Assembly: GCA_039926685.1 (NCBI GenBank)
Contig: JBDSWM010000403.1
Location: 1-52,193 of the forward strand
DNA from: Fibrobacteria bacterium
Lineage (GTDB): Bacteria > Fibrobacterota > Fibrobacteria > UBA11236
Reading direction: 5' to 3'
Length of the DNA stretch: 52,193 bases
Positions 1 through 32,889 of this stretch are shown here, one piece after another; the stretch's first letter is position 1; each line of letters begins with the position of its first letter. The notes under the pieces were generated by a model. The model did not search any database and had not been told where the DNA came from. It worked only from the letters and a program-made list of their open reading frames with translations. The position numbers and the translations under genes are program-made.

Positions 1-499
1 CGACGCAGAAGGGCGCGTCCTCGAAGTCCGCCCAGGTCAGCTCCCGCGACGGGGAGAAGACGAAACCGGGCTTGGTGATCCAATAGCTGAAGTCGCGGGT
101 GTCGTCGAAATGCCCGCCCCAAAAGGCGTTCCAGGTGATGGACTGGAGGCCCGCGCTCATGGGGGAGGTGGGCCACTCCAAAGGAACGTCCCAAGGGGTT
201 TGCACGCCCTTCCAGGTTTCGCTGTCGAAGCTGCACACGTGGGCGGGCAGGGGCGTGGTCTTGGCGCGCCCCTGGGAATGGGTCACCACGGTCATGAAAT
301 TGTAGCCCGCCATGGGAATGGCCGCGAAGGCGGTGGAACAGAAGCCGTACTGGGCCGTGCCCGTCGCGATTTGATCGGGCTTGGTGGTGTAGCCGCAATA
401 CCAATTGCGGGAAGGGGGGCTTTCCATCAAGCCGTCGCAGAAGGCAGATCCCGCAAGGGCCAGTGAAAGGGGCAAGGTCAAATACTTAAAGCGATCCAT
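1..499 (-). CDS. AA10 lytic polysaccharide monooxygenase-like secreted protein (3' partial), His1 replaced by Asp
   Basis: Not in the ORF track because it runs off the window. Manual translation from ATG 499 (RBS AGGAGG just upstream): MDRFKYLTLPLSLALAGSAFC-DGLMESPPSRNWYCGYTTKPDQ...GYNFMTVVTHSQGR...HVCSFDSETWKG...WP...ITWNAFWGGHFDDTRDFSYWITKPGF...ELTWADFEDAPFC. This matches AA10 motifs (HGxxxxPxSR, second His, YxTK, LxWxD). Confidence 0.85.
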   Translation of the reverse strand, partial: MDRFKYLTLPLSLALAGSAFCDGLMESPPSRNWYCGYTTKPDQIATGTAQYGFCSTAFAAIPMAGYNFMTVVTHSQGRAKTTPLPAHVCSFDSETWKGVQTPWDVPLEWPTSPMSAGLQSITWNAFWGGHFDDTRDFSYWITKPGFVFSPSRELTWADFEDAPFCV

Positions 500-572
500 C
501 CATCCTCCTGGGATTGTTAGTGGTCGAAGGGGCGAGGACGGTGCGGACGGCCGGGGAGGCGCCGGCGCCTGC

Positions 573-1202
573 CTAAATACGCGCCCGGAGGGAATCCAGG
601 GAGGCATGGCCGGAATAATTTTCCAATCGGTAGACTTCGCCGTTTTTGCCCACCAGGAAAAGGGTCGGAAGCGATGTGACCTGATAGGTCTCGCCGAATT
701 TCCGCACCGTATCCCAATAGACCGGGATTTTCACCCCGTACTTGGTTATGAACTCGCCGATTTCCTGAAAGTCGCTGCGCATATTGGCGATGGCGAGGGT
801 TTCCACGCCCTTGGCGCGGATCTCGCCGGCGAAGGTTTGGATTTCTGGGGTGGCGGCCTGGCAATGCGGGCAGGTAGGCCCGAAGTAGAATAGCAGAACC
901 GGCTTACCGCGATAGGCCAGAAAATTCACTTGCGGCCGGGTGATGGGCTGTAGAGGGATGGAGAAATCCATCCGGGTGGATCCCGGGTTGGGCGGCGGAA
1001 CCGCAGGCAAGACCGTGGCAGCAGGCGCAGCCGGGACGGCAGGCGGTGATATGGGGCCTGTAGGGTCGGGACTGGAGGCGGGCACAGCCGCGGGTTGCGA
1101 GACCGACCGGTTTTCACTCTCAGATCCTTTTTTGCAGGCCAACATAAATTGGCCGCATAAGACCGCCAGCAGGATGGATAAGATAAGCGAAGATGATTTC
1201 AT
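573..1202 (-). CDS. TlpA/ResA-like thiol-disulfide oxidoreductase lipoprotein
   Basis: Start re-assigned to MKSSSL (1202). Lipobox-like MLAC, Pro/Ala linker, GKPVLLFYFGPTCPHC (CxxC) and YQVTSLPTLFLVGKNG. Confidence 0.85.
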   Translation of the reverse strand: MKSSSLILSILLAVLCGQFMLACKKGSESENRSVSQPAAVPASSPDPTGPISPPAVPAAPAATVLPAVPPPNPGSTRMDFSIPLQPITRPQVNFLAYRGKPVLLFYFGPTCPHCQAATPEIQTFAGEIRAKGVETLAIANMRSDFQEIGEFITKYGVKIPVYWDTVRKFGETYQVTSLPTLFLVGKNGEVYRLENYSGHASLDSLRARI

Positions 1203-1404
1203 AGGACCCCTGGATACGGCAAGGTGATATTTCCTGCCCGGACAAGATACTACCGATCGCCGTCTCCACCACCGAGGCCGTGAGCCATGCGAAGCGCGGG
1301 GGAAGGGGTGAGTTGCCAGGACGACATGGCGCATTCCGCGAACGTTAAGATCGACTTGGTTCCCTTGCTATAGCCTCGGCGCCCATCCCGTAAAAGCCGC
1401 CCGA

Positions 1405-2661
1405 TCAAAATCCCGCAAGCGTTTTCCGGTACAATACCTTCCCGCCTTCCCCGGCGCTGACGATCAGCCAAGCCGGTCCGGTTGGCCGCGCCTCAGGCAT
1501 CTGGAACGTGTGCCAACCCGTATCGAAACGGCCTTCCGCCAAGACGACGCTCGTTTTGCCGCTCACATCGGCCAGCGCTATTTTGAGCTCGCGGGAACGG
1601 GAAGTGCGCAACCGGATCGATTCCCGGGAAATGCGGCTTTGGAATTCCTCCCTTCCTCCGGTGCCATCCGAACCCTCTCGGGCGCGGACTCCGGTGGCGG
1701 CGCCGGAAACAACCTGGTCCACGAAATCGGCCAGGGCCCGGTTGCGGGAAATCGCCACGCCGTCCGGCAGCTTGCGGACGAACCATTTCACTTCCCAGGC
1801 GATCGAATCGTTGGCGGGAATCGGATCATAGGCGCCTTGCAATTCCATCTCTTCCAAGGCGGACGTGATATAAAGTTCGCATTCGTTTTCCGTTCCCGGC
1901 GCCTTCTTGGCCGGTGGCGTATCCGCATACTTCTTGATGAAGAGCACCCGGCCCTTGTCCACATGGGCCATCCAGCCTGGCGCGCCTCCATCCGCGAAAA
2001 TCTTGGTCGTGCCCGAGAGGGCGGCGGAGCTGTCGTAGGTGAACCAGGTGATGCCGAGGGTGTCGCGTACTTGCTTCAACAGACCCGTATTCCCCGTCGG
2101 GGATCCGCTCCCTGTGGGCCAGAAAATCAGGCCGCCGGAAGGGAAGCGGGTGTCCTCCCAGGGCGCCCAGGTTATGGGCGCGGAAGAGGTATTGACGTAG
2201 TGGTACCGGTTGGTGAAGGACGAGTCCTTTAGGTTCGCGGAAAAAGTCTTGCGGATGCGGAGTTTCATGTAGCTGTCCGCCGTTCCGGTATAGGTGACCG
2301 CGGTATCCGCCGCCGCCAACCCTCCCGTATAGGCATTGCCGTCCATGGCGGCCGGGGGCGGCCAGCAATCCACCGTGTTCGCGCTCTTGCAGGCGGCGGT
2401 CCAATAAGCCTGGGGGCTGGCCCAAGCGGTGGATCCCCACAGGACGTTCCCGCCGGAGCTGTTGAGATAGAGCATCTCGGCGCCCTGGTACTTGAGGGAA
2501 GAGATGCGGGCGGAGTTGCCGGGACCGACTTGCAAGGCGGCGCCGCCGGTGGTAAGGATGTAGTTGCTCCCGGTTAGGACCGGGATGGCCTTTTGGCCGT
2601 ACATGACCGAAGGGAAAAAGAGCGCCAGGCATGCTCCCCGGATACCGGATAGTCGCGTCAA
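1405..2661 (-). CDS. Secreted DUF4380-like (galactose-mutarotase-like fold) protein with C-terminal sorting-like domain
   Basis: ARISSLK, WGSTAWASPQAYW, WPPP, APWEDTR, KIFADG, ELYI..LEEMELQGAY motifs. TTG start at 2661 is inferred from the signal peptide position and is uncertain. Confidence 0.65.
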   Translation of the reverse strand: MTRLSGIRGACLALFFPSVMYGQKAIPVLTGSNYILTTGGAALQVGPGNSARISSLKYQGAEMLYLNSSGGNVLWGSTAWASPQAYWTAACKSANTVDCWPPPAAMDGNAYTGGLAAADTAVTYTGTADSYMKLRIRKTFSANLKDSSFTNRYHYVNTSSAPITWAPWEDTRFPSGGLIFWPTGSGSPTGNTGLLKQVRDTLGITWFTYDSSAALSGTTKIFADGGAPGWMAHVDKGRVLFIKKYADTPPAKKAPGTENECELYITSALEEMELQGAYDPIPANDSIAWEVKWFVRKLPDGVAISRNRALADFVDQVVSGAATGVRAREGSDGTGGREEFQSRISRESIRLRTSRSRELKIALADVSGKTSVVLAEGRFDTGWHTFQMPEARPTGPAWLIVSAGEGGKVLYRKTLAGF

Positions 2662-2837
2662 ATCCGCCCCCAGGAAAGGTGTCCCGCTAATATACCGCCA
2701 GAGCGCCGGAGCCGGCGCTTGACCTTTGCCCGCCCTGTGAATTAGAATCGGAATTGACTCCGCCGCGGTCAGAATTAGATTCAGGGAACGCCTTTCCGAT
2801 GTAGCGTCTTCTTTCTCCGAAACGAATCGAGCATGCC

Positions 2838-4271
2838 ATGCGGATATCCTGCCCTTCCAAAAGGGTTTCCCTGCTGTTGTGCGCCTCTGCTTTTTTGTCG
2901 GCGGCGCCCGCCGCCGCATTGCGTTTCAGCGATCCCGGCTTCCGCTCCGAAACCTTGGCCGTATTGCCGGCCTCCCAACCCGTGGGATTGGCGTGGGGTC
3001 CCGGCGGCAGGATATTCATCTGGCAGAAGGATGGTTTGGTAAGGATCCTGAAGGACGGGGCCTTGTTGCCTACCCCTTTTATCGATATCCGGGATCATGT
3101 GAATACCGCCCATGATCGCGGAATGATGGGACTCGCCCTCGACCCCGATTTCGCGGCCAACGGGTACGTCTATCTCTTCTACACTTTCGAACCGGGAGGA
3201 GGAGCCGCGTCCAGCGACGGAGGACCGCGCAACGGCCGGCTTACGCGCGTCCAGGCCGATCCAGCCGACCCTGATCGGGCTTTGCCCGGATCCGAAACCC
3301 CTATCCTGGGCAAGCAGGAAGGGCCATGCTCCCAGTCTCCCGCCGGTTCCGATTGCATCAGCACGGACGTGGATTCCCATGGCGTGGGGACCTTGCTGTT
3401 CGCCCCCGACGGCAAGCTCTTCGCCAGCATCGGCGATGGCGCCGATTATAACCAACCCGATTCCCTTTCCTTCCGCTCGCAGGATTTGGATAGGTATGAA
3501 GGCAAACTCCTGCGCCTCAACCCGGATGGAAGCGCGCCGGGCGACAACCCCTTCGATGACGGCACCCAATCCATCCGCTCCCTGATCTATGCCTATGGGC
3601 TGCGCAACCCTTTCCGGTTCGGATTGGACGCCTCGGGCGAACCGTACATCGGCGATGTGGGGTCGAACCTGTTCGAAGAAATCGATCGCGGGCGGGGAGC
3701 GAATTTCGGATGGCCATGCTGGGAAGGGAACGGTCCCAACTGGCGCCGGGTGGACGTACTCGGCGTCGAGAATTGCCGCAAACTCGATTCCACCGTCAGC
3801 GTCCCCGTCAAACCCGTCTTCACCTACGGACGCGAAAGCGGCACTAGCGTGATCGGCGGCGACTTCAACCCGGGGATCTCATTTCCGGACAGCATGCGCG
3901 GGGATTTCTTCTTCGGGGATTGGGGCACCGACAAGCTGATGCGCTTGCGCTTGGATACCGCCGGGCGCGCTATTGCGGCGACAGAGTTCGCCGGGGAGGC
4001 GGGGCGGCCCGTTTTCCTGCGATTCGGTCCGGACGGTCTCTTGTACTATGTGGCCAACTCGGACCGGGGATCCGCGGAAATCCGGCGCATTGCGTTCACG
4101 GGGGCGCAATCCGCGATCCATGGCCCGCGCCGGCGTCATTCCGTTCCGAATCCGGTGGCCTTTCCCCTCTTCGACGGAACCGGCCGGTTGCGGGGGCGAA
4201 TCGAGGCTCCGAACCCGCCTGGGCGCCCTGGTATCGGCCGCTGGGGAACCCCGGTTTTTCCGGAGAAATAG
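2838..4271 (+). CDS. PQQ-dependent sugar (glucose/sorbosone) dehydrogenase family protein, secreted
   Basis: Signal peptide; DRGMMGLALDPDF, FAPDGKLFASIGDG, GKLLRLNPDGSAPGDNPF, YAYGLRNPFR, GANFGWP, FGPDGLLY. Confidence 0.88.
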   Translation: MRISCPSKRVSLLLCASAFLSAAPAAALRFSDPGFRSETLAVLPASQPVGLAWGPGGRIFIWQKDGLVRILKDGALLPTPFIDIRDHVNTAHDRGMMGLALDPDFAANGYVYLFYTFEPGGGAASSDGGPRNGRLTRVQADPADPDRALPGSETPILGKQEGPCSQSPAGSDCISTDVDSHGVGTLLFAPDGKLFASIGDGADYNQPDSLSFRSQDLDRYEGKLLRLNPDGSAPGDNPFDDGTQSIRSLIYAYGLRNPFRFGLDASGEPYIGDVGSNLFEEIDRGRGANFGWPCWEGNGPNWRRVDVLGVENCRKLDSTVSVPVKPVFTYGRESGTSVIGGDFNPGISFPDSMRGDFFFGDWGTDKLMRLRLDTAGRAIAATEFAGEAGRPVFLRFGPDGLLYYVANSDRGSAEIRRIAFTGAQSAIHGPRRRHSVPNPVAFPLFDGTGRLRGRIEAPNPPGRPGIGRWGTPVFPEK

Positions 4272-4289
4272 GCTTGCCTTATCCCGAAC

Positions 4290-6467
4290 CTATTCCTGCA
4301 GGGTGGCGCAGGAAATGGGATTTCCGGTCAGGCCAGGGCGGGAAAAACAGAATGCTGCCTTTCCGGATGGCTTAAGGAATAATCGGGGGGCGGCACCGCC
4401 AAAAGCCCCTACCTGGGGCAGTTCCCAGAGAAGCGCTCCCTGATCGTCTACCTTGGAAATCGTGAGACCTTCGCGGTATCCCAACAGCAAGGTTCCCCCT
4501 TGCGTGGCTAGCGCACCGGTCCATTTTCCGCCCATGCCTTGTACCGCGGCCGGAAAGGTTTCGGTCCAGAGGCGATTTCCCAGGGAATCGACCTTGGCTA
4601 TCCCGGCTCGATAATCAAAATCGGTGATATTGAATACTTCCCCCACGAGCAGGTATCCCCCATCCGAAGTCGGTTCCGCGTAAAGGCCCCGGGGGGTGCT
4701 TATGTTCGAAAACGATTGTTGCCATTGCGCCTGCCCAATGGAGTCAATCTTGAGAATGACCGCGGATTGGTCCCCGAATCGGTTCCTCGATTCGCCGGCG
4801 AGGATATAGCCTCCGTCAGCAGTCGGTTTAAGGGAATTCGCGAGGGCGCTTCGGAAGCCAATGGGTTTCTTTTCCCATTCCGTATTCCCGAGTTTATCGA
4901 TCTTTGCCATCCATCCTTGATCCTCGTCGCCGGGGCGGCCGGACAGCGAGAATAGGAACCCCGAATCCGGAGCCTGGACGAAATCCAGGATTGTGGCGGC
5001 TAGAAAGAGTTCCCTGGTCCCTTGGTAAACGACCCCGCCAGCCGAATTCAACCGCACCAATTGCGCGCGGGGATTCCTGAAGTCAGTGCCCACCGCCGAC
5101 ACGGCCACTCCGCCATCCAGAGTGGGCCTGACATGGGTGCCCCTCCACCCTGGCCCGCCCTGCCACGACCACAACACGGATCCTGAACTATCGACGCGGG
5201 ACACTTCCAACGGCTCCTGCAGGATGGCCCAGCCATCGTCCAGCGGGCAATACGATGCCAGCTTGAGATCGGCTGGGACTTGGGTTGCCACTATCGCGAC
5301 CGCCGGTTGCGGCGCGCCGGGGGGCCCGTCGCCCAGCGGGAAATCAAGGGATCCGGGGAAGGTCCAGTCCTTATACCAGAGATCGCCGTCCACGATGGCG
5401 CCCGCCTTGGCCGCGAGGAGGTTGTTCATCACAAAATCGCCTTGGAAGCGGAAGGCCCAATCGGATTGGAGGTTGGTAGCGATGCCGCTGGCGAACATGA
5501 CGGCCTTTTCCCAGCTACCCGCGCAGTCTTCCTTGGCATCCATCACCCCGCCTGACACGCCATTGTCGATCAGGGTGAGATGCGACCAATGGCCGGAGGA
5601 CTTGCGCGGTTCGCCTCCTTGCGAGCTGCTGCATTCGATGACGTTATCGCCCACGGGTTCGAGGGGGACGACGCTGCCAGGATCCCGCGGCCGGGGAGCC
5701 TCCATTCTCTGGATGCCGATGGCATAGTCGACATTGCCTTGGAATCCGTGGTCCAGGTCGAAACCATCGTCCGTCTCGTTCGTCACCACCAGATGGTCGG
5801 CATTGACTGCGCCGCCGAACCATTCGATGCCGTCATCATCGTCGCGATGGACCTGGACATGGTGAATCACCGTCTTGCGGCCTACGGCGCACAGGGTGAT
5901 CCCGTTCAATTCCCGGTCCACCATGAGGGGTAAACCGGGTCCGTCCAGGCGTAGGTAGGCCAGCACGCCGGAGGAGTCGTCATCATTGGCGCCTCCGAAT
6001 CTGGTCCAGGGAAGGCCTTCGTACTGATTGAGTACGCCTTGGTTGCTGATGCCTTTGCCCACCACCACGATTCCGCCTCAGGACCCGCGTTCCGCACCGG
6101 GCTCGCCGCTGAAGGTGATGGGTTGCTCCTTGGTTCCGGCGGCGACCAGGTAGCCGCCGCGATCCACCAGGAGCGTGCCCCGGTTGGCGGTGGAGGCTTC
6201 GACATAGGTGCCCGGTTGTATGGTCAGCGTGACGCCCGCCTTCACCAAAGTGAAACCGTTCAGGACCCAGATTTTATCGCTGGTCAGCGTTGTGTTCGTC
6301 ACGATGGAATCCGCGGGATTCGGCTCGGCATGAACCTTGACGGGAATGGCAACCCTAGGGAGACCGGCCGGCGGGGTCGCGCCCAGCGCCGAACCCATAC
6401 CAATAACCATCGCGGTTGCAATGGCCCTGGATACCAATCCTCGTTTACAAAAAGCGGTATGGCGCAT
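4290..6467 (-). pseudogene. Secreted beta-helix protein plus C-terminal propeller-like repeats, interrupted by an in-frame TGA at 6078-6080
   Basis: ORFs 6078..6467 and 4290..6068 are in the same frame. They read PITFSGEPGAERGS*GGIVVVG where the family has GxWGG. Also DDGIEWFGG, DDGFDLDHGFQG and DGGYILAG repeats. RBS AGGAG before ATG 6467. Confidence 0.75.
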
Positions 6468-6748
6468 TGATGGATATCTCCTGTAACGGATTACTCTCGA
6501 AGCGGGCGGGGAATCGCTTCCTGGGGAATCTTGAAATCGGGTCTTTCGATCCGCCTCAAGCCTTGTTGCGGGTCTGTTTCGCCCTCCTGGATGGTGCGCC
6601 CCACGCGGGCGAGCGCGGTGCCTGCTCGCTTTCCCGATCCAAGAATGAAAGAGAGGCAATATTCGCGTGAAAAAATGCTAGTCATTTATGCTAATCCCGT
6701 GTTCCCGAATGCCGGGATCGGGCGCGCGCAATCGGAAAGGATACTCTT

Positions 6749-9700
6749 ATGGGGAAAAGGTGGTTTTATACCGCTTCGTTGGCCGCCATCTCGTTGGCCG
6801 CCTTCGCTTCGCCTGCCTTAGTTTCGGCTACCGTCGCTTCGACGGCGGTGGAATATACCGTGACGCCAGGCTTGGTCCGTTCCGCGGTCGCGCCCTTGCG
6901 GACGGGACGCATGACGGGAACGGTGCTTCCCATCTGGAACCCGCCCGACATCTACGCCCGCATACGGCGGGGGTTCGGGGAACAAGGCTTCCGGCTGTTC
7001 CGCTTCCCCAATGGGAGCCTTTCCAACCAATATCACTGGAACGGATCCGGAAGCTACGATGCAACCAGCATTTGGCACCCGGACAGCGCCACCGTAACGC
7101 CGGGCTTCCAAGCGAATACCCGCTATAGGGGAACGACCAAGAGCAATTATGGCTCGGTCTTCTATTCCAACCTGACCGACGGGGTCGACTCCACCCTATG
7201 GTGGAGCGATCCGCTCGGCGGAATCGATCCTTGGGCGGCGGTGGATCTGGGCTCGGCCCGGACCCTCGATTCGGTCAGCATCGTATGGGGCTCGCTGCGT
7301 CCGGATAGCGTGGAGGTGGGAGCCTTGACGACGGAAGGGTGGACCCTTTACGTCTCCACCGACCTCCGTTTTTCGGCGCGCGGGGCCGAGGCCGTGACGG
7401 GATCCGTTACCACCTTGAAGTTGGATGGCCGAGAGATTCGCTACCTGGCCGTCCTTCCCCATGGAGTCGGCGCCGAAGGCGTCCAGATAGGGGAGATCCG
7501 GGCCTGGTCGAACGGGGTAAAGGTCACCTCGAACGTGGCTGACCAAGCGAAGCAGAGCCGGGCCTGGGCGCTGTCGACCCATCCGGGAAGCAAACGTTCG
7601 ACCGAGTGGGGAGGCACGGGGACGCCGAACTGGACCTTCGCGAATTTCATGGATTATCTCAAGTCCATGCCCGGATCCGAGCCCATGATTTGCGTGAACT
7701 ACGGCACCGGCACCCCCGAAGAGGCGGCGTCCTGGGTGCGCTATGCCAATGTCAAAGAGGGCATGGGCATCCGCCTCTGGCAGATAGGCAACGAAAACGA
7801 TGGGGAATGGGAGGAGGGCGGACCCGTCACGGCCAAGCAATATGCCGGCAAATACCTGGCCTTCGCCCGAGCCATGAAGGCGGTGGACCCGTCCATTCTC
7901 ATCCTCGGGCCGACCCTTTCGACCATGGAATTCTCGTACGCCGGGAGCGCCAGCTTCGATGGAAACACCTGGACCGAGGAGTTCTTGCGCCTGGTAGGGG
8001 AATCCGAAACGGCCGATGGCAAGCGCTATCTCGATGGCTTCGACTTCCACGCATATCCTTACTACCCGCAGGGAAAACCCTCTCCGGAGGACATGCTCGC
8101 CGCGATGCGCAAGCTGCGCCCCAACCTCGACACCCTCTCGGCCATGATGGCCAGGCGCTTGCAGGATCCGGGATCGCGCCTGATCTCGCTTTCCGAATTC
8201 AATGCCTCGGTGGTTTCCATGGACCTTACCATGCGTCCCGAAAACGCCACCGGCATGGCGATGATGCTCGCGCAGCTGATCGAGAAGTTCGGCGGGTCGG
8301 CCATGTCGATCGATTGGGAATCGTATACGGCCGTTGGAGGCAATCCCGACGGGAGTTCGGGAGGAACCTACGGAGCGCTCGCCCTATTCATCCCCCCGCG
8401 CTCGGGCGCGGCCTCGTCGCTGGACCTCGCGCCCAACGCGCCTTTCTGGGGCAACTGGATGGTGTCCAAGGCTTGGGCCATCGATTCGGCGAAGCCGATG
8501 GAGGTGGGCGTTGCGGGGGGAAACCTCCTGGAAGCGTTCGCCCTGACCGATGGACAGGATACATCCTACCTGTTCCAGAACCTATCGGCGGTGCCCTGCT
8601 CGGTCCAGGTGGACCAATCCCCGACGCGCGGCTGGATCTATTCGTTCTCGGCGGATCAATACGCCTGGAACGGGACTACCGCCAGCGCCTATGCCTCGCC
8701 CAACTCGGGACCGTCCTCGCGACCGGTGCCGGCAGGGTGGACCGGGAAGGCTTCCGTTCCGGGATTCGGGATGATCGTGGTCAGGACCAATTCTTCCACA
8801 TCCCTATCCGCCGCCGACCATGTGGTGCAGATGGCCGTCAACAACGCCAATCTCGAGTTCGGCGACACCTTGGCCATTTCGGGAACGGTTATCCGTTCGC
8901 CCGACGCCGCGGCGCCGGAAGCCCGATTGGGCGATTCCGCCTTCGCGCTATCCGCCACCGATGGGGCCTGGGATGGACCGCAGGAAGCGTTCAGTGTTCG
9001 CATCCCGGCGGAAGATTTGGGGGAAGGCGTCCGTTGGCTGCGGCTGGGCGCGGCGGATTCGCTCCACATCGCCATCACGGGCAAGGCCAGGCCCACGACG
9101 CGGGTGGATCTTTTCGATGACGAGTTGCTGCCTTCCGACCAGCCTTCCAAAATGGCATGGACGGCGTACATCGCGGGCGCGCCGAATACGGGATTGGTTT
9201 ATTCCTTCCCCGCGCGTACCGGGGGAGGACGCGCCTTCATGGCCAAGGCCTCCTTGAAACAACCCGCCAACCTGGGCTATAGGGTTTATGCCGAGTCCGG
9301 CCTGCGCCTGGACAGAGCCCTGGTCGCCGCTTCCATCGGGGTCAAGTTCGACTATGCCAGCTGGCACGCCTCCGGGGGGGCTTTCAATCTCCAGGTGACC
9401 ACCGATACGGTCAAGAACTATGACGAATACGATCTCGCGCTTCCCAATACCGATTCCGCGTGGCAGACCATCCGGGTCAAGTGGAGCGCTTTCGCGCAAT
9501 TGGGATGGGGCGGCGTGGCCACCGGCCCCCTGCTGGCGCGCCAGATCAACGGCCTTAACTTCCGCGCCTACGGGGAAGGCGACACCAAATTCTGGATCGA
9601 CAACCTGGTCCTGCTGGGCGCCTCCGGCGATTCCATTTCCGGCATCCGGCGCGCGAGCGTCGCCCGGGACGGGTGGTCCGTAATCCCGAAGGGGAATCTC

Positions 9701-9886
9701 TGGGCTTTCGATTTGCCCGCGGGCGCGAAGCTGCGCTTGATCAGTCTCGATGGCCGGGAGGTCTATGCCTTCGCAGCGCGCGAACGTGAACTTGTGGGTT
9801 ACCGTCCCCGGCATGCCGGAATTCTCTATGCCCAGGTGGAGATCCAGGGCCGGCGACAGGTGAAAATGCTGCCGATGATCCGGTAA
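6749..9886 (+). CDS. Multimodular clan GH-A glycoside hydrolase (GH44/GH51-like) with discoidin-like insert, CBM11/CIA30-like module and C-terminal sorting-like domain
   Basis: Signal peptide; RFPNGSLSNQYHW, VNYGTGTPEEAASWVRYAN, WQIGNE (acid/base), FDFHAYPY, LSEFN (nucleophile); WAAVDLGSARTLDSVSIVW insert; WQTIRVKWSAF...FWIDNL. Confidence 0.75.
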   Translation: MGKRWFYTASLAAISLAAFASPALVSATVASTAVEYTVTPGLVRSAVAPLRTGRMTGTVLPIWNPPDIYARIRRGFGEQGFRLFRFPNGSLSNQYHWNGSGSYDATSIWHPDSATVTPGFQANTRYRGTTKSNYGSVFYSNLTDGVDSTLWWSDPLGGIDPWAAVDLGSARTLDSVSIVWGSLRPDSVEVGALTTEGWTLYVSTDLRFSARGAEAVTGSVTTLKLDGREIRYLAVLPHGVGAEGVQIGEIRAWSNGVKVTSNVADQAKQSRAWALSTHPGSKRSTEWGGTGTPNWTFANFMDYLKSMPGSEPMICVNYGTGTPEEAASWVRYANVKEGMGIRLWQIGNENDGEWEEGGPVTAKQYAGKYLAFARAMKAVDPSILILGPTLSTMEFSYAGSASFDGNTWTEEFLRLVGESETADGKRYLDGFDFHAYPYYPQGKPSPEDMLAAMRKLRPNLDTLSAMMARRLQDPGSRLISLSEFNASVVSMDLTMRPENATGMAMMLAQLIEKFGGSAMSIDWESYTAVGGNPDGSSGGTYGALALFIPPRSGAASSLDLAPNAPFWGNWMVSKAWAIDSAKPMEVGVAGGNLLEAFALTDGQDTSYLFQNLSAVPCSVQVDQSPTRGWIYSFSADQYAWNGTTASAYASPNSGPSSRPVPAGWTGKASVPGFGMIVVRTNSSTSLSAADHVVQMAVNNANLEFGDTLAISGTVIRSPDAAAPEARLGDSAFALSATDGAWDGPQEAFSVRIPAEDLGEGVRWLRLGAADSLHIAITGKARPTTRVDLFDDELLPSDQPSKMAWTAYIAGAPNTGLVYSFPARTGGGRAFMAKASLKQPANLGYRVYAESGLRLDRALVAASIGVKFDYASWHASGGAFNLQVTTDTVKNYDEYDLALPNTDSAWQTIRVKWSAFAQLGWGGVATGPLLARQINGLNFRAYGEGDTKFWIDNLVLLGASGDSISGIRRASVARDGWSVIPKGNLWAFDLPAGAKLRLISLDGREVYAFAARERELVGYRPRHAGILYAQVEIQGRRQVKMLPMIR

Positions 9887-9931
9887 GAACCGGAGAATTG
9901 GTAGATTCCCGGGAACCATCCCGGGAATCCT

Positions 9932-10900
9932 ATGCTCTTGGAAAAACTTCGCAACCGCAGCCATGGCATCCGACTGTACGGCCTCACCCCGCCCAAGCGG
10001 GGACAGGATCCGTCCAGGCTGCGCGAAGTCGCGGAGCGGCAAATGCAGCGCCTGGCCGGGCTCGCGCCCGATGGCCTGGTCCTCTACGACCTGCAGGATG
10101 AGGCCGGGCGCACGGGAGTGGAAAGGCCATTCCCATTCCTTCCCACCTTGGAGCCCACGGAGTATGCCCGGGACTTCCTGTCGGATTTGCCCATCCCGAA
10201 AGTGTTCTACAAATGTATCGCCAACCTGGGCCGCGCGGATTTCCAGGCCTGGCGGAACGGTTGCGCGCCGGAACGGGATGCCTATGTATTGGTGGGCGCC
10301 CCCTCGACCGCGCAGGATCCCGCGGCGACGGGAAGCCTCACCCTTTCGGAAGCTTACGGCCTGCTCGAAAAATCCGCGCCGCCGATCTGTTTCGGCGGCG
10401 TAACAATCGCGGAGCGGCATACGCGCAAGGGCGATGAGGATGCGCGCCTGGCGGCGAAGCATGCCGCCGGCTGCCGCTTCTTCATCTCCCAGACCATCTA
10501 CGACTCGAGCGCCTCCAAGTCCCTGATATCGGACTATGCCTTGCGCTTCGCGCGCGAAGGCCTGGCTCCGGCCCCGATCCTCCTAAGCTTCAGCCCATGC
10601 GGATCGATCAAGACCATGGAGTTCATGAAATGGCTGGGCATCTCCTTCCCGCGCTGGCTCGAGAACGAACTCCGGCATTCTCCCGACATCCTGGCCAAAT
10701 CCGTGGACCTGGCGCAGCATGTATTCGCGGACATCCTCGCTTTCGCCGCGTCCAAAGGGATTCCCATCGGCGTGAACGTGGAAAGCGTGTCCATACGCAA
10801 GGATGAAATCGAAGCCTCATGCGAGCTGTTCCGCAGGCTGTCGGCGTTGCTGGACATCCAGGCTACGGAATCCGACTCCGGTGCCAGCCTGGGACCGTAA
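9932..10900 (+). CDS. Methylenetetrahydrofolate reductase family protein (MetF-like)
   Basis: LYGLTPPK, YDLQDE, GGVTIAERH, GCRFFISQTIYD, FMKWLGI. Confidence 0.8.
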   Translation: MLLEKLRNRSHGIRLYGLTPPKRGQDPSRLREVAERQMQRLAGLAPDGLVLYDLQDEAGRTGVERPFPFLPTLEPTEYARDFLSDLPIPKVFYKCIANLGRADFQAWRNGCAPERDAYVLVGAPSTAQDPAATGSLTLSEAYGLLEKSAPPICFGGVTIAERHTRKGDEDARLAAKHAAGCRFFISQTIYDSSASKSLISDYALRFAREGLAPAPILLSFSPCGSIKTMEFMKWLGISFPRWLENELRHSPDILAKSVDLAQHVFADILAFAASKGIPIGVNVESVSIRKDEIEASCELFRRLSALLDIQATESDSGASLGP

Positions 10901-12349: not shown

Positions 12350-12621
12350 TGTCCGTATTCCTGGTGCTCATTCCCATATCCCTCGGCTTGGCGGTCCTGT
12401 TCGTGCTGCTGTGCCTGGCGTCCATCCGCGACGGACAGTTCGACGATCTGGAAAGCCCCCGGTGGCGCGTCCTTTTTGAAAGGGGCGAATTCGGCGAGAG
12501 CGGCGAAAGCGACAAACACGGCGCCAGCGCCATAAGAGGCGTCAGCGGCGGAATCGCCTTGGCCATCGCCCCGATAAAACACCTACCCCCGAACCTCCCC
12601 ATTCCCGAGGATGGAAAATGA
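12349..12621 (+). CDS. ccoS: cbb3 oxidase maturation protein CcoS/FixS
   Basis: MSVFLVLIPISLGL...GQFDDLESPRWRVL; overlaps the ccoN start. Confidence 0.88.
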   Translation: MSVFLVLIPISLGLAVLFVLLCLASIRDGQFDDLESPRWRVLFERGEFGESGESDKHGASAIRGVSGGIALAIAPIKHLPPNLPIPEDGK

Positions 12622-14813
12622 AGCGCATCCAGTATGATGACAAGATAGTACGCATGTTCCTCCTGGCCTGCCTGGCCTGGGGGGTGATCGGCATGTCCGC
12701 CGGACTTTGGCTGGCCCTGGAGCTGGCGTATTGGAAGTTCAACCTGGGGGCCAACATCAACTTCGGGCGCCTGCGGCCCTTCCACACCAACGCCGTGATC
12801 TTCGCCTTCGGAGGCAACGGCATCTTCTGCGGAGTCTACTACTCCCTCCAGCGCCTCTTGAAGACCCGGCTCTTCAACGACACGCTTTCGCGCATCCATT
12901 TCTGGGCCTGGCAGCTGTTGATATTGGTGGGCGGATTGGGCTTCCTCTTCGGCATCACCCAAGGCAAGGAATACGCCGAGCTGGAATGGTGGGCGGATAT
13001 CCTGGTGGCCGTGGTCTGGGTGATCTTCGCCGTCAACTTCTTCGGCACCATCGCCATCCGCCGGGTGAAGCACCTGTACGTGGCCATATGGTTCTACATC
13101 GGCACCGTCATAACCATCGCCGTGCTGCACATCGTGAACGGGCTGGCAATCCCCGTCTCCTTCACCAAGAGCTATCCCGTCTACGCCGGCGTGCAGGACG
13201 CGCTCGTGCAATGGTGGTACGGCCACAACGCCGTGGGCTTCTTCCTGACCACGCCTTTCCTGGGCATGATGTACTACTTCATCCCCAAGGCGGCCGACCG
13301 GCCCGTGTATTCCTACCGGCTTTCCATCATGCACTTCTGGGCGCTGGTATTCCTGTACATATGGGCGGGGCCCCATCATCTGCATTATACGGCCTTGCCC
13401 GATTGGGCCCAGAACCTGGGAATGGTGTTCTCGGTGATGCTCCTGGCGCCTTCCTGGGGAGGCATGCTGAACGGCCTGCTCACCCTGCGCGGGGCCTGGC
13501 ACAAATTGCGCACCGATCCCGTCCTCAAGTTCTTCGCCGCGGCCGTTACCTTCTACGGCATGGCGACCTTCGAAGGGCCGCTGATGTCCATCAAGTCGGT
13601 GAACGCGCTTTCCCATTACACCAATTGGACCATCGGCCACGTGCATGCCGGCGCCATCGGCTGGGTGGGGTTGCTGATATTCGGCATGATCTACTGGCTG
13701 GTGCCGCGCATGTGGCGCACGCCGTTGCATAGCTGGCCGCTGGCGAACGTCCATTTCTGGATCGCCTTCATCGGCATCATGTTCTACATCGTTTCCATGT
13801 GGATAGCCGGGATCATGGAAGGGCTGATGTGGAAGGAGTTCACCTCGGAAGGACTGCTGGCCTATCCCAACTTCCTGGAAATCGTGACCAAGATCAATCC
13901 GCTCTACTGGCTGCGCGCCCTCGGCGGCACGCTCTACCTGGTCGGCCTGTTCGTCATGGTCTACAATGTCTTCAAGACCATCCGGGCGGCGCCCGTGTTC
14001 CGGGACGAGGAGGCGGAGGTCCCGGATCTCATGGCCAGCCAACAAGCCTACCCCAAGCCCAAGTACTGGCATGCGGTCCTGGAGGGCAAGCCCCTGGCCT
14101 TGGCCCTGCTGACCACGGTGGTGATCGCCATCGGCGGTATCGTGGAAATGGTCCCGACCTTCCTCATCGAATCCAACGTGCCGACCATCACCGCGGTAAA
14201 GCCCTATACCCCCCTGGAGCTCGAGGGCCGCGATATCTATGTCCGGGAAGGCTGCTACAATTGCCATTCCCAGATGGTCCGCCCCTTCCGCGACGAAGTG
14301 ACCCGTTACGGCGACTATTCCAAGCCGGGGGAATTCGTCTACGACCATCCCTTCCAATGGGGCAGCCGGCGCACCGGTCCCGACCTGCACCGCGTGGGCG
14401 GCAAGTACAACAATCTCTGGCATCTGCGGCATCTGGACGATCCGCGCCTGACCTCGCCGGGATCCATCATGCCCGCCTATAGGTTCCTGCTGGAGCGGAA
14501 ACTCGATTTGTCCCTGACCCCGACCAAGATCAAGGTCATGCGCCAGCTGGGCGTGCCCTATCCCAAGGAGATGGAGAAGGAGTGCACGGCCGTGGCGCTG
14601 GCCCAGGCCAAGGCCGTCGGCGACGATCTGGCCAAGGAAGGCGTATCGGGCATGGAGGACAAGGAAGTGGTCGCCCTCATCGCCTATCTGCAGCGCTTGG
14701 GCACCGATATCAAATGGCGCGAAGCGGCCACGGCCCTGGAACCGGCCGCCAGCGCAGTCACCCCGGAACCGGCCGCGGCGGCCGCGACCGCAAGCAAAGG
14801 AGCGGCCCGATGA
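12618..14813 (+). CDS. ccoN: cbb3-type cytochrome c oxidase fused subunits I/II (CcoN-CcoO)
   Basis: GRLRPFHTNAVIFAF, WWYGHNAVGF, GPHHLHY, GHVHAG; then the CcoO part EGCYNCHSQMVRP, WGSRRTGPDL, SIMPAY. Confidence 0.97.
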   Translation: MKRIQYDDKIVRMFLLACLAWGVIGMSAGLWLALELAYWKFNLGANINFGRLRPFHTNAVIFAFGGNGIFCGVYYSLQRLLKTRLFNDTLSRIHFWAWQLLILVGGLGFLFGITQGKEYAELEWWADILVAVVWVIFAVNFFGTIAIRRVKHLYVAIWFYIGTVITIAVLHIVNGLAIPVSFTKSYPVYAGVQDALVQWWYGHNAVGFFLTTPFLGMMYYFIPKAADRPVYSYRLSIMHFWALVFLYIWAGPHHLHYTALPDWAQNLGMVFSVMLLAPSWGGMLNGLLTLRGAWHKLRTDPVLKFFAAAVTFYGMATFEGPLMSIKSVNALSHYTNWTIGHVHAGAIGWVGLLIFGMIYWLVPRMWRTPLHSWPLANVHFWIAFIGIMFYIVSMWIAGIMEGLMWKEFTSEGLLAYPNFLEIVTKINPLYWLRALGGTLYLVGLFVMVYNVFKTIRAAPVFRDEEAEVPDLMASQQAYPKPKYWHAVLEGKPLALALLTTVVIAIGGIVEMVPTFLIESNVPTITAVKPYTPLELEGRDIYVREGCYNCHSQMVRPFRDEVTRYGDYSKPGEFVYDHPFQWGSRRTGPDLHRVGGKYNNLWHLRHLDDPRLTSPGSIMPAYRFLLERKLDLSLTPTKIKVMRQLGVPYPKEMEKECTAVALAQAKAVGDDLAKEGVSGMEDKEVVALIAYLQRLGTDIKWREAATALEPAASAVTPEPAAAAATASKGAAR

Positions 14814-31674: not shown

Positions 31675-32889
31675 TTATTTCGGCAATACGTCCAGGCTCT
31701 TTGCCGATGCGGACGGAACCACCGGGACCCGGCCCAGGATGTCCACGACCGCCCCGCTCCCGATCGAGAATACGGGTACCGAGGCCGTCCCTTGCAGGTT
31801 ACCCGAGGCCCGGCGCATGGGCTGGATGGTGGGGAAATTGATTCCGGTCACGCCGCCCGGGCCCTTCGCCGCGAATTCCTTGCGCTTGGCGCTGATGGCC
31901 GGATCAGCAGCTGCCATCGCGGTGATAAGGGCCTGGATCATCTCCGTCTTGGGGGCGGGCGTGCTTCCGCTGTAGAGCAGGCAACCGCAATTGCTGCCGA
32001 TCCAGGAATTGGCGTCCGAGAGGCCCCAGGTCACGAAGGACACGCAATTGTAGTTCTCCAGGCAGGCGGTCAGGAGATTGGTCCAATCCGAGGCCTTGGC
32101 GTTGGTGATGTCGATTTCCGTAAGGGAAATCCGCAATCCCAGATCCCCGAAACGCTTGATGTTCGCCGAGATGTCGTCCTTCTTGAACCCGCTGCCCAGG
32201 TGGCATTGCAGGCCGATGCCGTCGACGGGCACCTTGTTGGTCTGCCACTTCTTCGCCAGGTTGAACATGGACGTCGACTTCCCGTTGACGCCGTCACCGC
32301 CGAAGTCGTTGTAGTACAGATAACCGTTGTTTCCAACGGCGCGCCGTGACATGGCGAACGCCGAGTCCAGATAATCGTCCCCGATGTTCGTCCGCCAAAA
32401 GTTGACTTCGAGGCTGGAGCCCGAGGTGATCTCGTTCAACACGTCCCATTCCAGGATCTTGGTCTTGAAATGCCCGCCCACGTTTTCGATGTGGTTCCGC
32501 ATGATCGTAAGCCCCGTGGTGCGATCATGGATCGCGTTTTTAGCCGGGCCGGCCTGATCGCGCCAAATGAAGTTATGGCCGCGCATCTTCATCCCGTTGG
32601 CGGCGGCGAAAGTGTAAACCGCGTCCCCGCCCGTATACTTGTAGGTTCCGATGGGGTTCTCGGTGCCCTCGAACTTCATTTCGTTCTCGCATACGACCAT
32701 GTTGAATTGCTGTTTGACGATGGTGGCGTAGGCGGAAGTGGCGTTGTTGACCTGGTTGCTGTTGGTCGCGATGCCGATGTTGAGGCCTACCGCGGCCGCG
32801 GCATCCTTCAAGGTGGTTGCCGTTTGCGCCGAAGCGATCGAGGCCGAGAGGGAAAGCGCCAGTAAAGCGGAGGTTGAACGGCGGGTCAT
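31675..32889 (-). CDS. GH10 endo-1,4-beta-xylanase, secreted
   Basis: ENEMK, RGHNFIW, WDVLNE, YYNDF, DGIGLQCH, LTEIDI, TWGLSD. Confidence 0.93.
   Translation of the reverse strand: MTRRSTSALLALSLSASIASAQTATTLKDAAAAVGLNIGIATNSNQVNNATSAYATIVKQQFNMVVCENEMKFEGTENPIGTYKYTGGDAVYTFAAANGMKMRGHNFIWRDQAGPAKNAIHDRTTGLTIMRNHIENVGGHFKTKILEWDVLNEITSGSSLEVNFWRTNIGDDYLDSAFAMSRRAVGNNGYLYYNDFGGDGVNGKSTSMFNLAKKWQTNKVPVDGIGLQCHLGSGFKKDDISANIKRFGDLGLRISLTEIDITNAKASDWTNLLTACLENYNCVSFVTWGLSDANSWIGSNCGCLLYSGSTPAPKTEMIQALITAMAAADPAISAKRKEFAAKGPGGVTGINFPTIQPMRRASGNLQGTASVPVFSIGSGAVVDILGRVPVVPSASAKSLDVLPK

What the first reader, a model, noticed from the sequence alone, without database searches (positions are those of the whole stretch)
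1..499. AA10 LPMO homologue whose copper-brace His1 is Asp
Seen: an unannotated minus-strand gene. After the signal peptide (A-F-C), codon 22 (436-434) is GAC (Asp), followed by GLMESPPSRNWYCG; the candidate second brace His (WGGHFDDT) is retained. Established: LPMO catalysis needs the mature N-terminal His (amine plus imidazole) as copper ligand, and His1-substituted variants are known among fungal AA9s. Inference: this could be a non-canonical Asp-brace metal site, a non-catalytic polysaccharide-binding protein, or a single CAC-to-GAC mutation or error. An LPMO in a Fibrobacterota-like organism is notable in itself, since the well-studied rumen members are anaerobes.
Basis: partly seen in the sequence, partly recalled or inferred. 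Interest (0 to 1): 0.85.

Follow-up and report, generated by a model that had tools for sequence, protein, structure and literature searches.

The report
LPMO relative with an aspartate brace
A soil-type Fibrobacterota bacterium carries a well-conserved relative of the copper enzymes that cut cellulose oxidatively, in which the key copper-holding histidine is replaced by aspartate, pointing to an undescribed kind of metal site or role.

Summary
Window 499-2 (minus strand) encodes the first 166 residues of an AA10/LPMO_10 protein, cut by the contig end. After a 21-residue signal peptide, residue 1 is Asp (GAC, 436-434) where AA10s have His1.

It is not an error. Asp1 defines one clade: 39 of 105 classifiable sequences, SH-aLRT 99. 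Both Asp codons occur, and dN/dS is 0.05-0.29.

The rest of the copper site is kept: His109 in 39/39, Phe197 in 38/38, plus Gly107 and Arg189. The second-sphere Glu195 is always Gln (38/38), against Glu in 61/63 His-type relatives.

In 296 genomes of the phylum, Asp-type genes occur in 5. Each of these also has a canonical His1 paralogue, in tandem in one genome.

A model of an orthologue superposes on cellulose-active CjAA10B (TM 0.98). The genome encodes a cbb3 oxidase, so the organism is not a strict anaerobe.

My best reading (about 0.5) is a remodelled but functional metal site: amine and carboxylate of Asp1 plus His109, with Glu-to-Gln offsetting the added charge. The main rival is a non-catalytic binder.

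I found no paper describing such an AA10. This is a new variant of a known kind, and only biochemistry can settle its function.

The parts
2..499 (-). Partial CDS (166 codons, 3' end lost at the contig start) of an Asp-type AA10/LPMO_10 protein
   Evidence: ORF and translation. PF03067 at E 5.4e-19. The window starts at base 1 of contig C403. A near-identical fragment, P0068 (103/104 identical), continues for 116 more residues.
504..509 (-). Shine-Dalgarno-like AGGAGG, 4 nt upstream of the ATG
   Evidence: Read directly from the sequence. Supports ATG 499 as the start rather than the upstream in-frame ATG at 607 listed.
437..499 (-). Signal peptide, 21 codons, ending A-F-C
   Evidence: n-h-c layout read. 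The cut site aligns with the cut sites of 38 Asp-type and 64 His-type relatives. The -1 residue is A 20, G 18, C 1 in the Asp clade. Not checked with SignalP.
434..436 (-). Codon GAC = Asp1, at the position of the copper-brace His1
   Evidence: Covered without a difference by contigs of runs X1 and X2. Asp in 39/39 clade members against His in 64/64 others.
110..112 (-). Codon CAT = His109, the second brace histidine (WGGHFDDT)
   Evidence: Aligns with H109 of CjAA10B and H107 of TtAA10A (PMC12884475; PMC6767633). His in 39/39 Asp-type sequences.
116..118 (-). Codon GGC = Gly107, the small residue on the axial side opposite Phe
   Evidence: Sequence. Gly is invariant in the alignment. Gly is named as the axial residue in CjAA10B and TtAA10A.

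Best explanation
The gene encodes a secreted AA10-fold protein. It belongs to a conserved Fibrobacterota-specific paralogue clade in which the metal site is remodelled, not lost.

Shown here:
- Residue 1 after the signal peptide is Asp.
- The clade arose once from His-type AA10s of the CjAA10B/TtAA10A (cellulose-active) kind.
- It keeps His109, Gly107, Arg189 and Phe197.
- It always has Gln where relatives have the second-sphere Glu (the Glu of the Arg-Glu-Phe motif).
- It evolves under purifying selection.
- In the genomes searched it is always accompanied by a canonical His1 paralogue.

Inferred:
- After Sec export and signal-peptidase cleavage, the free amine and the beta-carboxylate of Asp1 chelate a metal. 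The six-membered ring (N-Calpha-Cbeta-Cgamma-O-metal) has the same size as the ring formed by the amine and N-delta1 of His1.
- His109 supplies the third ligand, giving an N,N,O set over Phe197.
- The Glu195-to-Gln change keeps an H-bonding side chain at the co-substrate pocket and removes one negative charge. This offsets the new carboxylate.
- Such a site should hold Cu(II) more firmly than Cu(I), giving a lower potential, or it may prefer another divalent metal.
- The protein would act on the plant-polysaccharide surface beside the canonical paralogue.

Whether it cleaves polysaccharide oxidatively is open.
For: 1. Recurrence and single origin.
- Asp1 occurs in 39 of the 105 classifiable sequences, out of 121 examined.
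- These form one clade with SH-aLRT 99. The result holds after removing the mosaic P0035 and the long row P0117.

2. Constraint.
- The D-clade subtree is 6.25 substitutions per site long, yet Asp1 is invariant. The one exception is a nested Asn derivative.
- Asp codons are GAC 7 and GAT 3 of 10.
- dN/dS is 0.05-0.29 in 10/10 Asp-type pairs, like the His-type paralogues at 0.07-0.27.

3. The site is kept and co-varies.
- His109 is kept in 39/39, Phe197 in 38/38, Gly107 in 39/39 and Arg189 in 38/38.
- Position 195 is Gln in 38/38, against Glu in 61/63 His-type sequences.
- The joint pattern is D-H-Q-F in 38 and H-H-E-F in 60.
- Position 195 aligns with the Glu of the R-x-D-x-x-E-x-F motif of ScLPMO10D and CbpD. 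This is the Arg-Glu-Phe second-sphere motif of ScAA10C, R212/D214/E217/F219 (PMC11137697).

4. Contrast with decayed cases.
- Asn1 (P0034/L121) also has Phe197Leu and His53Arg.
- Arg1 (P0098/L068) has Phe197Val.
- The Asp clade shows none of this.

5. Fold.
- The AF2 model of the G012 orthologue has pLDDT 91.
- Foldseek gives 9i1u_A (CjAA10B): TM 0.98 by target length, rmsd 1.0 A over 206 columns, 51% identity.

6. Precedent that an N-terminal Asp amine binds Cu(II): the amyloid-beta peptide, in a passage of PMC11590009.
Against: - No metal, activity or expression data exist. No RNA run was listed.
- The tool returns no coordinates for the model, so I could not measure whether the Asp1 carboxylate faces His109.
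- His109, Phe197 and Arg189 could be conserved for fold or for the binding surface rather than for a metal.
- The window's own copy lacks the C-terminal third. Its Gln195 and Phe197 are inferred from P0068 (103/104 identical in the overlap) and P0017 (94% identical).
- One lineage nested beside the window's own sequence (P0034) has drifted to Asn1 and Leu197. This shows the site can be dispensable.
- A carboxylate ligand would be expected to disfavour Cu(I), which LPMO catalysis needs.
- The tree used the quick search only.
Confidence: 0.5

Rival explanations
1. A non-catalytic polysaccharide-binding or surface-disrupting protein. On this reading the AA10 fold and its flat face are kept for binding cellulose or hemicellulose, no metal is bound, and Asp1 only caps or salt-bridges the N-terminus. 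It would help or target the canonical His1 paralogue and the glycoside hydrolases.
For: - The defining His1 is missing.
- It always co-occurs with a canonical paralogue: 5 of 5 genomes, in tandem in G015.
- The clade has gained aromatic residues at mature positions 13 (Y/F 37/39) and 16 (F/Y 28/39), where His-type relatives have I and A/K/E.
- A nested lineage lost Asp1 and Phe197 (P0034).
- There is precedent in AA9: LsAA9B is an LPMO-like protein without the brace (passage of PMC10354095).
Against: - A free N-terminal residue with no role should drift. Here it is invariant over 6.25 substitutions per site.
- His109, Phe197 and Gly107 are invariant.
- The Glu-to-Gln change is perfectly coupled to His-to-Asp. 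That coupling is not expected if the pocket were idle.
- Independent His1 losses (Arg1, Asn1) do lose Phe197.
Confidence: 0.3
2. A metal-handling protein, with no polysaccharide chemistry. It could be a copper or other metal chaperone, buffer or scavenger for the secreted canonical LPMO, in the manner proposed for X325/Bim1, CopC, PmoF1 and YcnI.
For: - Histidine-brace derivatives with altered first spheres are mostly linked to copper transport (PMC10952591, section 10).
- X325 uses an Asp carboxylate as the fourth copper ligand (same paper).
- The gene pairs with a His1 paralogue.
- A ResA/TlpA-like thiol-disulfide oxidoreductase gene lies 74 nt upstream on the same strand in the window.
Against: - No copper-transport genes were seen next to Asp-type genes in the six contexts examined: the window, G001, G012, G015, L115 and L120.
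- The redoxin neighbour is not conserved in the other loci.
- The substrate-face architecture and the whole cellulose-type AA10 domain are kept at 51% identity to CjAA10B.
Confidence: 0.15
3. A sequencing or assembly error, or a decaying pseudogene. On this reading the true codon is CAC, or the gene is dead.
For: - His-to-Asp needs a single base change (CAC to GAC).
- The gene is cut by a contig end.
- Depth in the two holding runs is only about 5.
Against: - 38 other clusters have Asp1, and both Asp codons occur.
- dN/dS is 0.05-0.29.
- The 166 codons contain no stops or frameshifts.
- Contigs of X1 and X2 agree at 434-436.
- The truncation is the contig end, not a lesion.
Confidence: 0.02

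Closest known systems
CjAA10B (Cellvibrio japonicus LPMO10B, PDB 9i1u) and TtAA10A (Teredinibacter turnerae, PDB 6rw7), both cellulose-active AA10 LPMOs
   Same: - Closest solved relatives by sequence: phmmer E 1.7e-73 and 3.1e-52.
- Closest by fold: TM 0.98 and 0.91.
- Same numbering of site residues: H109, F197 and axial Gly107 in CjAA10B.
- Same Cys pattern, and the same Arg...Glu-x-Phe strand in the His-type paralogues.
   Different: - Residue 1 is Asp, not His.
- Position 195 is Gln, not Glu.
- Further clade-specific changes: Gly69Ser (39/39) and Leu146Glu (37/38), with Phe110Tyr and Pro108Ala common.
- No CBM. Instead there is a roughly 60-residue low-confidence tail with a D-x-L-G-R motif.
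LsAA9B-type 'LPMO-like' AA9 proteins without the histidine brace (Frandsen et al. 2019)
   Same: A natural member of an LPMO family in which the N-terminal His is replaced and whose function is unknown. I saw only a citing passage in PMC10354095. The paper itself is not held.
   Different: - Fungal AA9, not bacterial AA10.
- As I recall, without having checked, the N-terminal residue there is Arg, which is not a metal ligand.
- Here the replacement is a good metal ligand of matching chelate geometry, and the other site residues are invariant.
X325/Bim1, CopC, PmoF1 and YcnI: histidine-brace derivatives linked to copper handling
   Same: Secreted proteins with a modified brace. In X325 an Asp carboxylate joins the copper sphere (PMC10952591).
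   Different: - Those keep the N-terminal His. The review names two variations only: a positional isomer of the amine, and replacement of the second His.
- Replacement of the first His by Asp is not among them.
- Their folds and families differ from AA10.
Cu(II) site of amyloid-beta (N-terminal Asp1 amine with His ligands)
   Same: An N-terminal Asp supplies the coordinating amine to Cu(II) together with His side chains (passage of PMC11590009).
   Different: It is a disordered peptide, not an enzyme fold. The resemblance is chemical only.

Membership tests
AA10 / Pfam LPMO_10 (sequence family) | Match to PF03067 above the gathering score | tested here: met
   70 bits against a cut-off of 23, E 5.4e-19, residues 23-165. 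Also found by a whole-genome family search.
AA10 / Pfam LPMO_10 (sequence family) | AA10 beta-sandwich fold | tested here: met
   Tested on the G012 orthologue (77% identical to the window's part), not on the truncated window copy. AF2 pLDDT 91. Foldseek top hits are all AA10; 9i1u_A has TM 0.98 and rmsd 1.0 A.
Canonical LPMO (copper histidine-brace enzyme) | Signal peptide cleaved so that the brace residue is residue 1 | tested here: inconclusive
   The cut site aligns with those of His-type relatives, and -1 is A/G/C in 39/39. No SignalP run and no N-terminal sequencing.
Canonical LPMO (copper histidine-brace enzyme) | N-terminal histidine (amine plus imidazole as copper ligands) | tested here: not met
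   Asp (GAC 436-434) in the window. Asp in 39/39 clade members.
Canonical LPMO (copper histidine-brace enzyme) | Second brace histidine | tested here: met
   His109 (CAT 112-110), 39/39 in the clade. Aligns with H109 of CjAA10B.
Canonical LPMO (copper histidine-brace enzyme) | Axial Phe/Tyr and second-sphere Glu/Gln | tested here: inconclusive
   The window copy ends before these residues. In 38/38 full-length clade members the pattern is Phe197 and Gln195. P0068, 103/104 identical to the window's protein, has ...YQRFHGC....
Canonical LPMO (copper histidine-brace enzyme) | Copper binding and oxidative cleavage of a polysaccharide | not testable with these tools
   Needs protein chemistry.
LPMO-like proteins without a brace (LsAA9B type) | Member of AA9 whose N-terminal His is replaced by a non-ligand residue | tested here: not met
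   The family here is AA10, and the replacement, Asp, is a ligand-capable residue. The likeness is in kind only.

The most novel reading that the evidence does not exclude
The Asp clade is a naturally evolved 'aspartate brace'. On this reading it is a catalytically competent LPMO-type site in which a carboxylate replaces the imidazole of residue 1, with Glu195-to-Gln as the compensating change.

Two versions are possible:
- It is tuned to a lower copper potential, for H2O2-driven chemistry at low oxygen.
- It has switched to another metal, such as Fe(II) or Mn(II). The N,N,O donor set is the same as in 2-His-1-carboxylate oxygenases.

Either would mean that the N-terminal histidine is not indispensable for LPMO-type chemistry.
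Probability: 0.3. Interest if true: 0.9.

Novelty: new variant of a known kind. Interest (0 to 1): 0.72.

Why it matters
The N-terminal histidine is treated as the defining, indispensable ligand of all LPMOs and of the wider histidine-brace proteins. A 2023 review of brace modifications lists no replacement of it.

Here nature has run the experiment. One lineage swapped it for aspartate and changed the key second-sphere glutamate to glutamine. It has kept both changes, and the rest of the site, under purifying selection across at least 39 sequence clusters.

This provides a ready-made natural pair for study. Asp-type and His-type paralogues, about 60% identical, occur in the same genome. They can be used to ask what the imidazole contributes to copper affinity, redox potential and oxidative stability.

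It also bears on annotation. These proteins are labelled 'lytic polysaccharide monooxygenase' or 'chitin-binding protein' by their sources, although the defining ligand is absent.

Tried and rejected
- Expression. No RNA holder was listed for window 1-1400, so nothing can be said about expression.
- Other laid runs. X3 (soil) and X4 (plant metagenome) hold contigs over window 1-198 and 1-369 only, with 1 and 11 differences. They do not reach codon 22. X4's contig runs 113 nt beyond the window's start, but its letters are not given.
- The missing 3' part of the gene. It was not found elsewhere in G000. The only matches in the genome are C403 and the His-type paralogue on C86.
- An 'intermediate' His1/Gln195 form (P0035). 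It first appeared as sister of the Asp clade. I rejected it as evidence for the order of events because it is a mosaic. Its first 140 residues are closer to His-type sequences (max identity 0.74-0.80, against 0.62-0.69 to Asp-type). Its last 70 are closer to Asp-type (0.86 against 0.66). It comes from a 1.2-kb contig and may be an assembly chimera.
- Other odd patterns among His-type rows. P0112 (R195/V197) and P0117 (L109) are frameshifted translations.
- Tyr1 in L045. It has stop codons and no signal peptide upstream, so it may be broken.
- Conserved gene neighbourhood. None is convincing. The upstream redoxin of the window is not found beside the other Asp-type genes. DUF1080 and ThuA genes recur nearby but not consistently.
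- Geometry of Asp1 relative to His109. It could not be measured because the structure tool returns no coordinates.
- Jobs I chose not to send. No complex-prediction job, because I make no binding claim. No second structure job, no search of protein representatives and no protein-atlas search.
- Literature. Searches found no paper on an AA10 with an N-terminal Asp. PMC11653725 concerns an AA10 of Cellulomonas, not of Fibrobacterota.
- Supplements of papers are closed. The supplement of PMC11137697 tabulates residue combinations across AA10 sequence space and might list such variants. I could not see it.
As a result, the tandem arrangement suggested by equal contig lengths of Asp-type and His-type clusters could be verified only for the 8932-nt contig, G015:C62. 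The unverified pairs are P0019/P0093 at 15434, P0028/P0047 at 4836 and P0016/P0072 at 2725.
Full report
WHAT IS IN THE WINDOW

Window 499-2 on the minus strand is an open frame of 166 codons that runs off the first base of the window. The window starts at base 1 of contig C403 of a 414-contig genome that is 82% complete. The gene is therefore cut by the assembly, not by a lesion.

The start I accept is ATG 499-497, four bases after AGGAGG (509-504). It gives a standard signal peptide, MDRFKYLTLPLSLALAGSAFC. The next codon, 436-434, is GAC (Asp), followed by GLMESPPSRNWYCG. Further on is WGGHFDDT, whose His codon is CAT at 112-110.

Pfam LPMO_10 matches residues 23-165 at E 5.4e-19, 70 bits against a cut-off of 23.

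ASP1 IS NOT AN ERROR

The same genome has a second AA10 gene on contig C86, 64% identical over 145 residues. Its signal peptide is followed by the canonical HGVIESPPARNW. Asp therefore sits exactly where the paralogue has His1.

Genomes of the same genus and family carry orthologues of the Asp form:
- G001: ...LAFG|DGLMESP
- G012: ...TIRA|DGLMESP
- G015: ...PTNA|DGLMESP
- G019: N-terminus lost at a contig end, but with the other Asp-clade markers

I searched 5.8 billion protein clusters with the full-length G012 orthologue and got 120 hits. With the window's own protein that makes 121 sequences. The N-terminal landmark classifies them as follows:

| Residue 1 | Sequences |
|---|---|
| Asp | 39 |
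| His | 64 |
| Asn | 1 |
| Arg | 1 |
| Truncated or unreadable | 16 |

Tree evidence:
- A maximum-likelihood tree of 97 rows puts all 39 Asp rows on one side of a branch, SH-aLRT 99. I dropped 8 classifiable rows because my C-terminal landmark did not match, and residue 1 itself was left out of the alignment.
- A second tree gives the same clade of 40, support 99. It omits the mosaic P0035 and the long row P0117 and includes the Asn and Arg rows.
- In that tree the Asn row is nested next to the window's own sequence.
- Both trees used the quick search.

Constraint:
- The Asp subtree is 6.25 substitutions per site long, and Asp1 is one of 75 invariant columns out of 210.
- Among the 10 Asp-type genes for which I hold DNA, the codon is GAC in 7 and GAT in 3.
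- Pairwise dN/dS among the five genomic Asp-type genes is 0.05-0.29 in 10 of 10 pairs. dS is mostly near or above 1, so the ratios are rough. The His-type paralogues give 0.07-0.27.

Read evidence: contigs that Logan assembled from two runs cover 434-436 without a differing letter. Both runs are from one study, have depth about 5 and may be the source sample. This adds little independent weight.

WHAT ELSE CHANGED AND WHAT DID NOT

The closest solved structures are two cellulose-active AA10 LPMOs: CjAA10B (9i1u, E 1.7e-73) and TtAA10A (6rw7, E 3.1e-52).

Passages of their papers give the copper ligands:
- CjAA10B: H1 and H109, with F197 and a Gly in the axial positions (PMC12884475).
- TtAA10A: His1 and His107, with Phe195 and Gly105, and C1/C4 oxidation of cellulose only (PMC6767633).

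The numbering of the present family coincides with CjAA10B.

Comparing the 39 Asp-type with the 64 His-type sequences column by column (n is 38 beyond residue 145, where the window's copy ends):

| Mature position | Asp-type | His-type |
|---|---|---|
| 109 | His 39/39 | His 63/64 |
| 107 | Gly 39/39 | Gly 64/64 |
| 189 | Arg 38/38 | Arg 64/64 |
| 197 | Phe 38/38 | Phe 62/63 |
| 195 | Gln 38/38 | Glu 61/63 |
| 69 | Ser 39/39 | Gly 56/64 |
| 146 | Glu 37/38 | Leu 50/64 |
| 66 | His 39/39 | mixed |
| 132 | Glu 39/39 | mixed |
| 110 | mostly Tyr | Phe |

An alignment of the C-terminal strand with ScLPMO10D and CbpD puts position 195 on the Glu of their R-x-D-x-x-E-x-F motif. This is the Arg-Glu-Phe second-sphere motif described for ScAA10C, R212, D214, E217 and F219 (PMC11137697, abstract and passages). 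A search listing of PMC10472438 (abstract only) states that this conserved Gln/Glu tunes copper-site reactivity.

The joint pattern at positions 1/109/195/197 is D-H-Q-F in 38 sequences and H-H-E-F in 60. The exceptions are informative:
- The single H-H-Q-F row (P0035) is a mosaic of a His-type front and an Asp-type rear.
- Two aberrant His-type rows are frameshifted translations.
- The Asn1 row (P0034; DNA in L121, codon AAT) also has Leu197 and Arg53.
- The Arg1 row (P0098/L068, a gammaproteobacterial MAG by its record title) has Val197.

So where His1 is lost in a way that cannot bind metal, the axial Phe goes too. In the Asp clade it never does.

FOLD

An AlphaFold2 model of the mature G012 orthologue (alignment of 102 sequences) has mean pLDDT 91, with blocks of 95-98 through residue 200. 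The C-terminal 45 residues fall to 51-66.

Foldseek places the model on 9i1u_A with TM 0.98 (by target length), rmsd 1.0 A over 206 columns and 51% identity. 6rw7 and other AA10s follow.

The tool gives no coordinates, so I could not measure side-chain geometry at the site.

DISTRIBUTION AND BIOLOGY

In 296 species-representative genomes of the phylum, this AA10 type occurs in 7. Six of these are among the 32 genomes of the window's family, G000 included, and one is among the 6 genomes of a sister family. None occurs in the family with 151 genomes.
- Asp-type genes are in 5: G000, G001, G012, G015 and G019.
- All 5 also have a His-type gene. In G015 the two are adjacent on the same strand.
- G011 and G027 have only the His type. 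G011 is unpublished, and these statements rest partly on it.

Among the best 80 loci of a scan of one genome per bacterial and archaeal species, I read 80 N-termini in 78 loci: His 77, Asp 1 (the G015 record, titled Fibrobacterota bacterium), Tyr 1 and Arg 1. Two loci were cut at contig ends. Source names for two Asp-type clusters also say Fibrobacterota or Fibrobacteria. As far as searched, the Asp form is confined to one family-level lineage of Fibrobacterota.

The organism is not a strict anaerobe by its genes. It has two COX1-family genes, one of which (window 12618-14810) is a fused CcoN-CcoO cbb3-type oxidase. The two runs that hold most of the stretch are labelled rhizosphere metagenomes.

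The His-type paralogue of G000 lies beside a GH5 cellulase. The window around the Asp-type gene encodes a ResA/TlpA-like redoxin, a DUF4380 protein, a PQQ-dependent glucose/sorbosone dehydrogenase, a GH44 and, further on, a GH10. Neighbourhoods of other Asp-type genes differ. DUF1080 (3-keto-disaccharide hydrolase family) and ThuA genes recur, but not consistently.

HOW IT MOST LIKELY WORKS

Shown: this is a secreted AA10-fold protein of the cellulose-type subgroup. It has Asp1 and Gln195 in place of His1 and Glu195, everything else at the site is conserved, it is under purifying selection, and it is always accompanied by a canonical paralogue.

Inferred from coordination chemistry (my own reasoning):
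- The amine and beta-carboxylate of an N-terminal Asp close a six-membered chelate ring of the same size as the ring formed by the amine and N-delta1 of His1. Asp is thus the closest non-His stand-in for the brace.
- With His109 it offers an N,N,O set.
- The change adds a negative charge. The coupled Glu195-to-Gln change removes one and keeps a hydrogen-bonding head group at the co-substrate pocket.
- That an N-terminal Asp amine can coordinate Cu(II) is known from amyloid-beta (passage of PMC11590009).
- I expect a harder site that favours Cu(II) over Cu(I), or another divalent metal.

I put about 0.5 on a functional metal site of this kind. Within that, about 0.3 overall goes on true oxidative catalysis.

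The rivals are:
- a non-catalytic binder (0.3);
- a metal-handling helper of the canonical LPMO (0.15);
- error or pseudogene (0.02).

COMPARISON WITH WHAT IS KNOWN

By sequence and fold this is a member of family AA10. By the defining ligand it is not a canonical LPMO. That feature was tested and not met.

A 2023 review of the histidine brace names two kinds of first-sphere modification: a positional isomer of the amine, and replacement of the second His in YcnI. It also notes an added Asp ligand in X325. Replacement of the first His is not mentioned (PMC10952591, section 10 and passages).

The nearest precedent is the fungal LsAA9B, an AA9 without the brace. I know it only through a citing passage and recall, because the paper is not held.

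Six full-text searches found no report of an AA10 with an N-terminal Asp. Supplements were closed, and subscription journals are largely outside the library, so this is not proof of absence.

VERDICT

This is a real, conserved, lineage-specific variant of the LPMO active site, so a new variant of a known kind. Its function is unproven, and it is directly testable against its own His-type paralogue.

Noticed in passing
window 2838-4268 (+), 31678-32919 (-); L005/L016, L115, L120; P0017, P0058: Many secreted proteins of this lineage share a C-terminal tail: a low-complexity stretch, then D-x-(x)-L/T/M-G-R, then 10-30 mostly basic residues. It is found on both AA10 paralogue types, the PQQ dehydrogenase, a GH10 and DUF1080 proteins. 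It matches no Pfam or NCBIfam model and folds with pLDDT 51-66. It may be a lineage-specific sorting or anchoring signal. My regex found it in only 2 of 37 long window ORFs.
   Followed up: partly
window 12618-14810 (+): A fused CcoN-CcoO (COX1 plus FixO) cbb3-type cytochrome oxidase gene. A second COX1 gene is on contig C36. This implies micro-aerobic respiration in a Fibrobacterota genome.
   Followed up: partly
window 576-1334 (-): A ResA/TlpA-like thiol-disulfide oxidoreductase (Redoxin, CPHC motif) lies 74 nt upstream of the Asp-type gene on the same strand and may be co-transcribed. It is not found beside the Asp-type genes of G001, G012, G015, L115 or L120.
   Followed up: partly
window 1408-9883: A polysaccharide and redox neighbourhood. 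It comprises a DUF4380 protein (1408-2919, -), a PQQ glucose/sorbosone dehydrogenase (2838-4268, +), a weak PQQ_2-like beta-propeller (4293-6068, -) and a GH44 with an F5/8-type C domain (6749-9883, +). From recall: the dehydrogenase's Pfam family includes the fungal AA12 enzymes, which are known as LPMO reductants.
   Followed up: no
G015:C62 (L006/L017/L020) 5948-7644: An Asp-type and a His-type AA10 gene lie in tandem on the same strand, with a ThuA-family gene upstream. Three further Asp/His cluster pairs list identical longest-contig lengths and may also be tandem.
   Followed up: partly
L016 9038-10219; L115 7231-9513; L120 8000-9148: DUF1080 / 3-keto-disaccharide hydrolase family genes lie within 0.2-1.3 kb downstream of Asp-type genes in G012, L115 (a close relative of G012) and the divergent L120. 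ThuA-family genes lie near those of G015 and G001. This could be a link to keto-sugar products, or coincidence.
   Followed up: no
P0035 (1.2-kb contig): A mosaic AA10: His-type over the first ~140 residues and Asp-type over the last ~70, giving His1 with Gln195. It is either an assembly chimera or gene conversion between the paralogues.
   Followed up: partly
P0034 / L121 670-1500: An Asn1 derivative (codon AAT) nested inside the Asp clade beside the window's sequence. It also has Phe197Leu and His53Arg, so it looks like secondary loss of the site in one lineage.
   Followed up: yes
L068 / P0098; L045: Two other non-His N-termini in the same AA10 subgroup outside Fibrobacterota. One is Arg1 with Phe197Val, in a MAG titled Granulosicoccaceae. 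The other is Tyr1, in a MAG titled Methylococcaceae, which has stop codons and no signal peptide upstream and may be broken.
   Followed up: partly
G000:C86 (L018) 8170-10431: The canonical His1 paralogue of this genome is divergently adjacent to a GH5 cellulase. On its other side is a 1063-residue PA14-domain protein.
   Followed up: no
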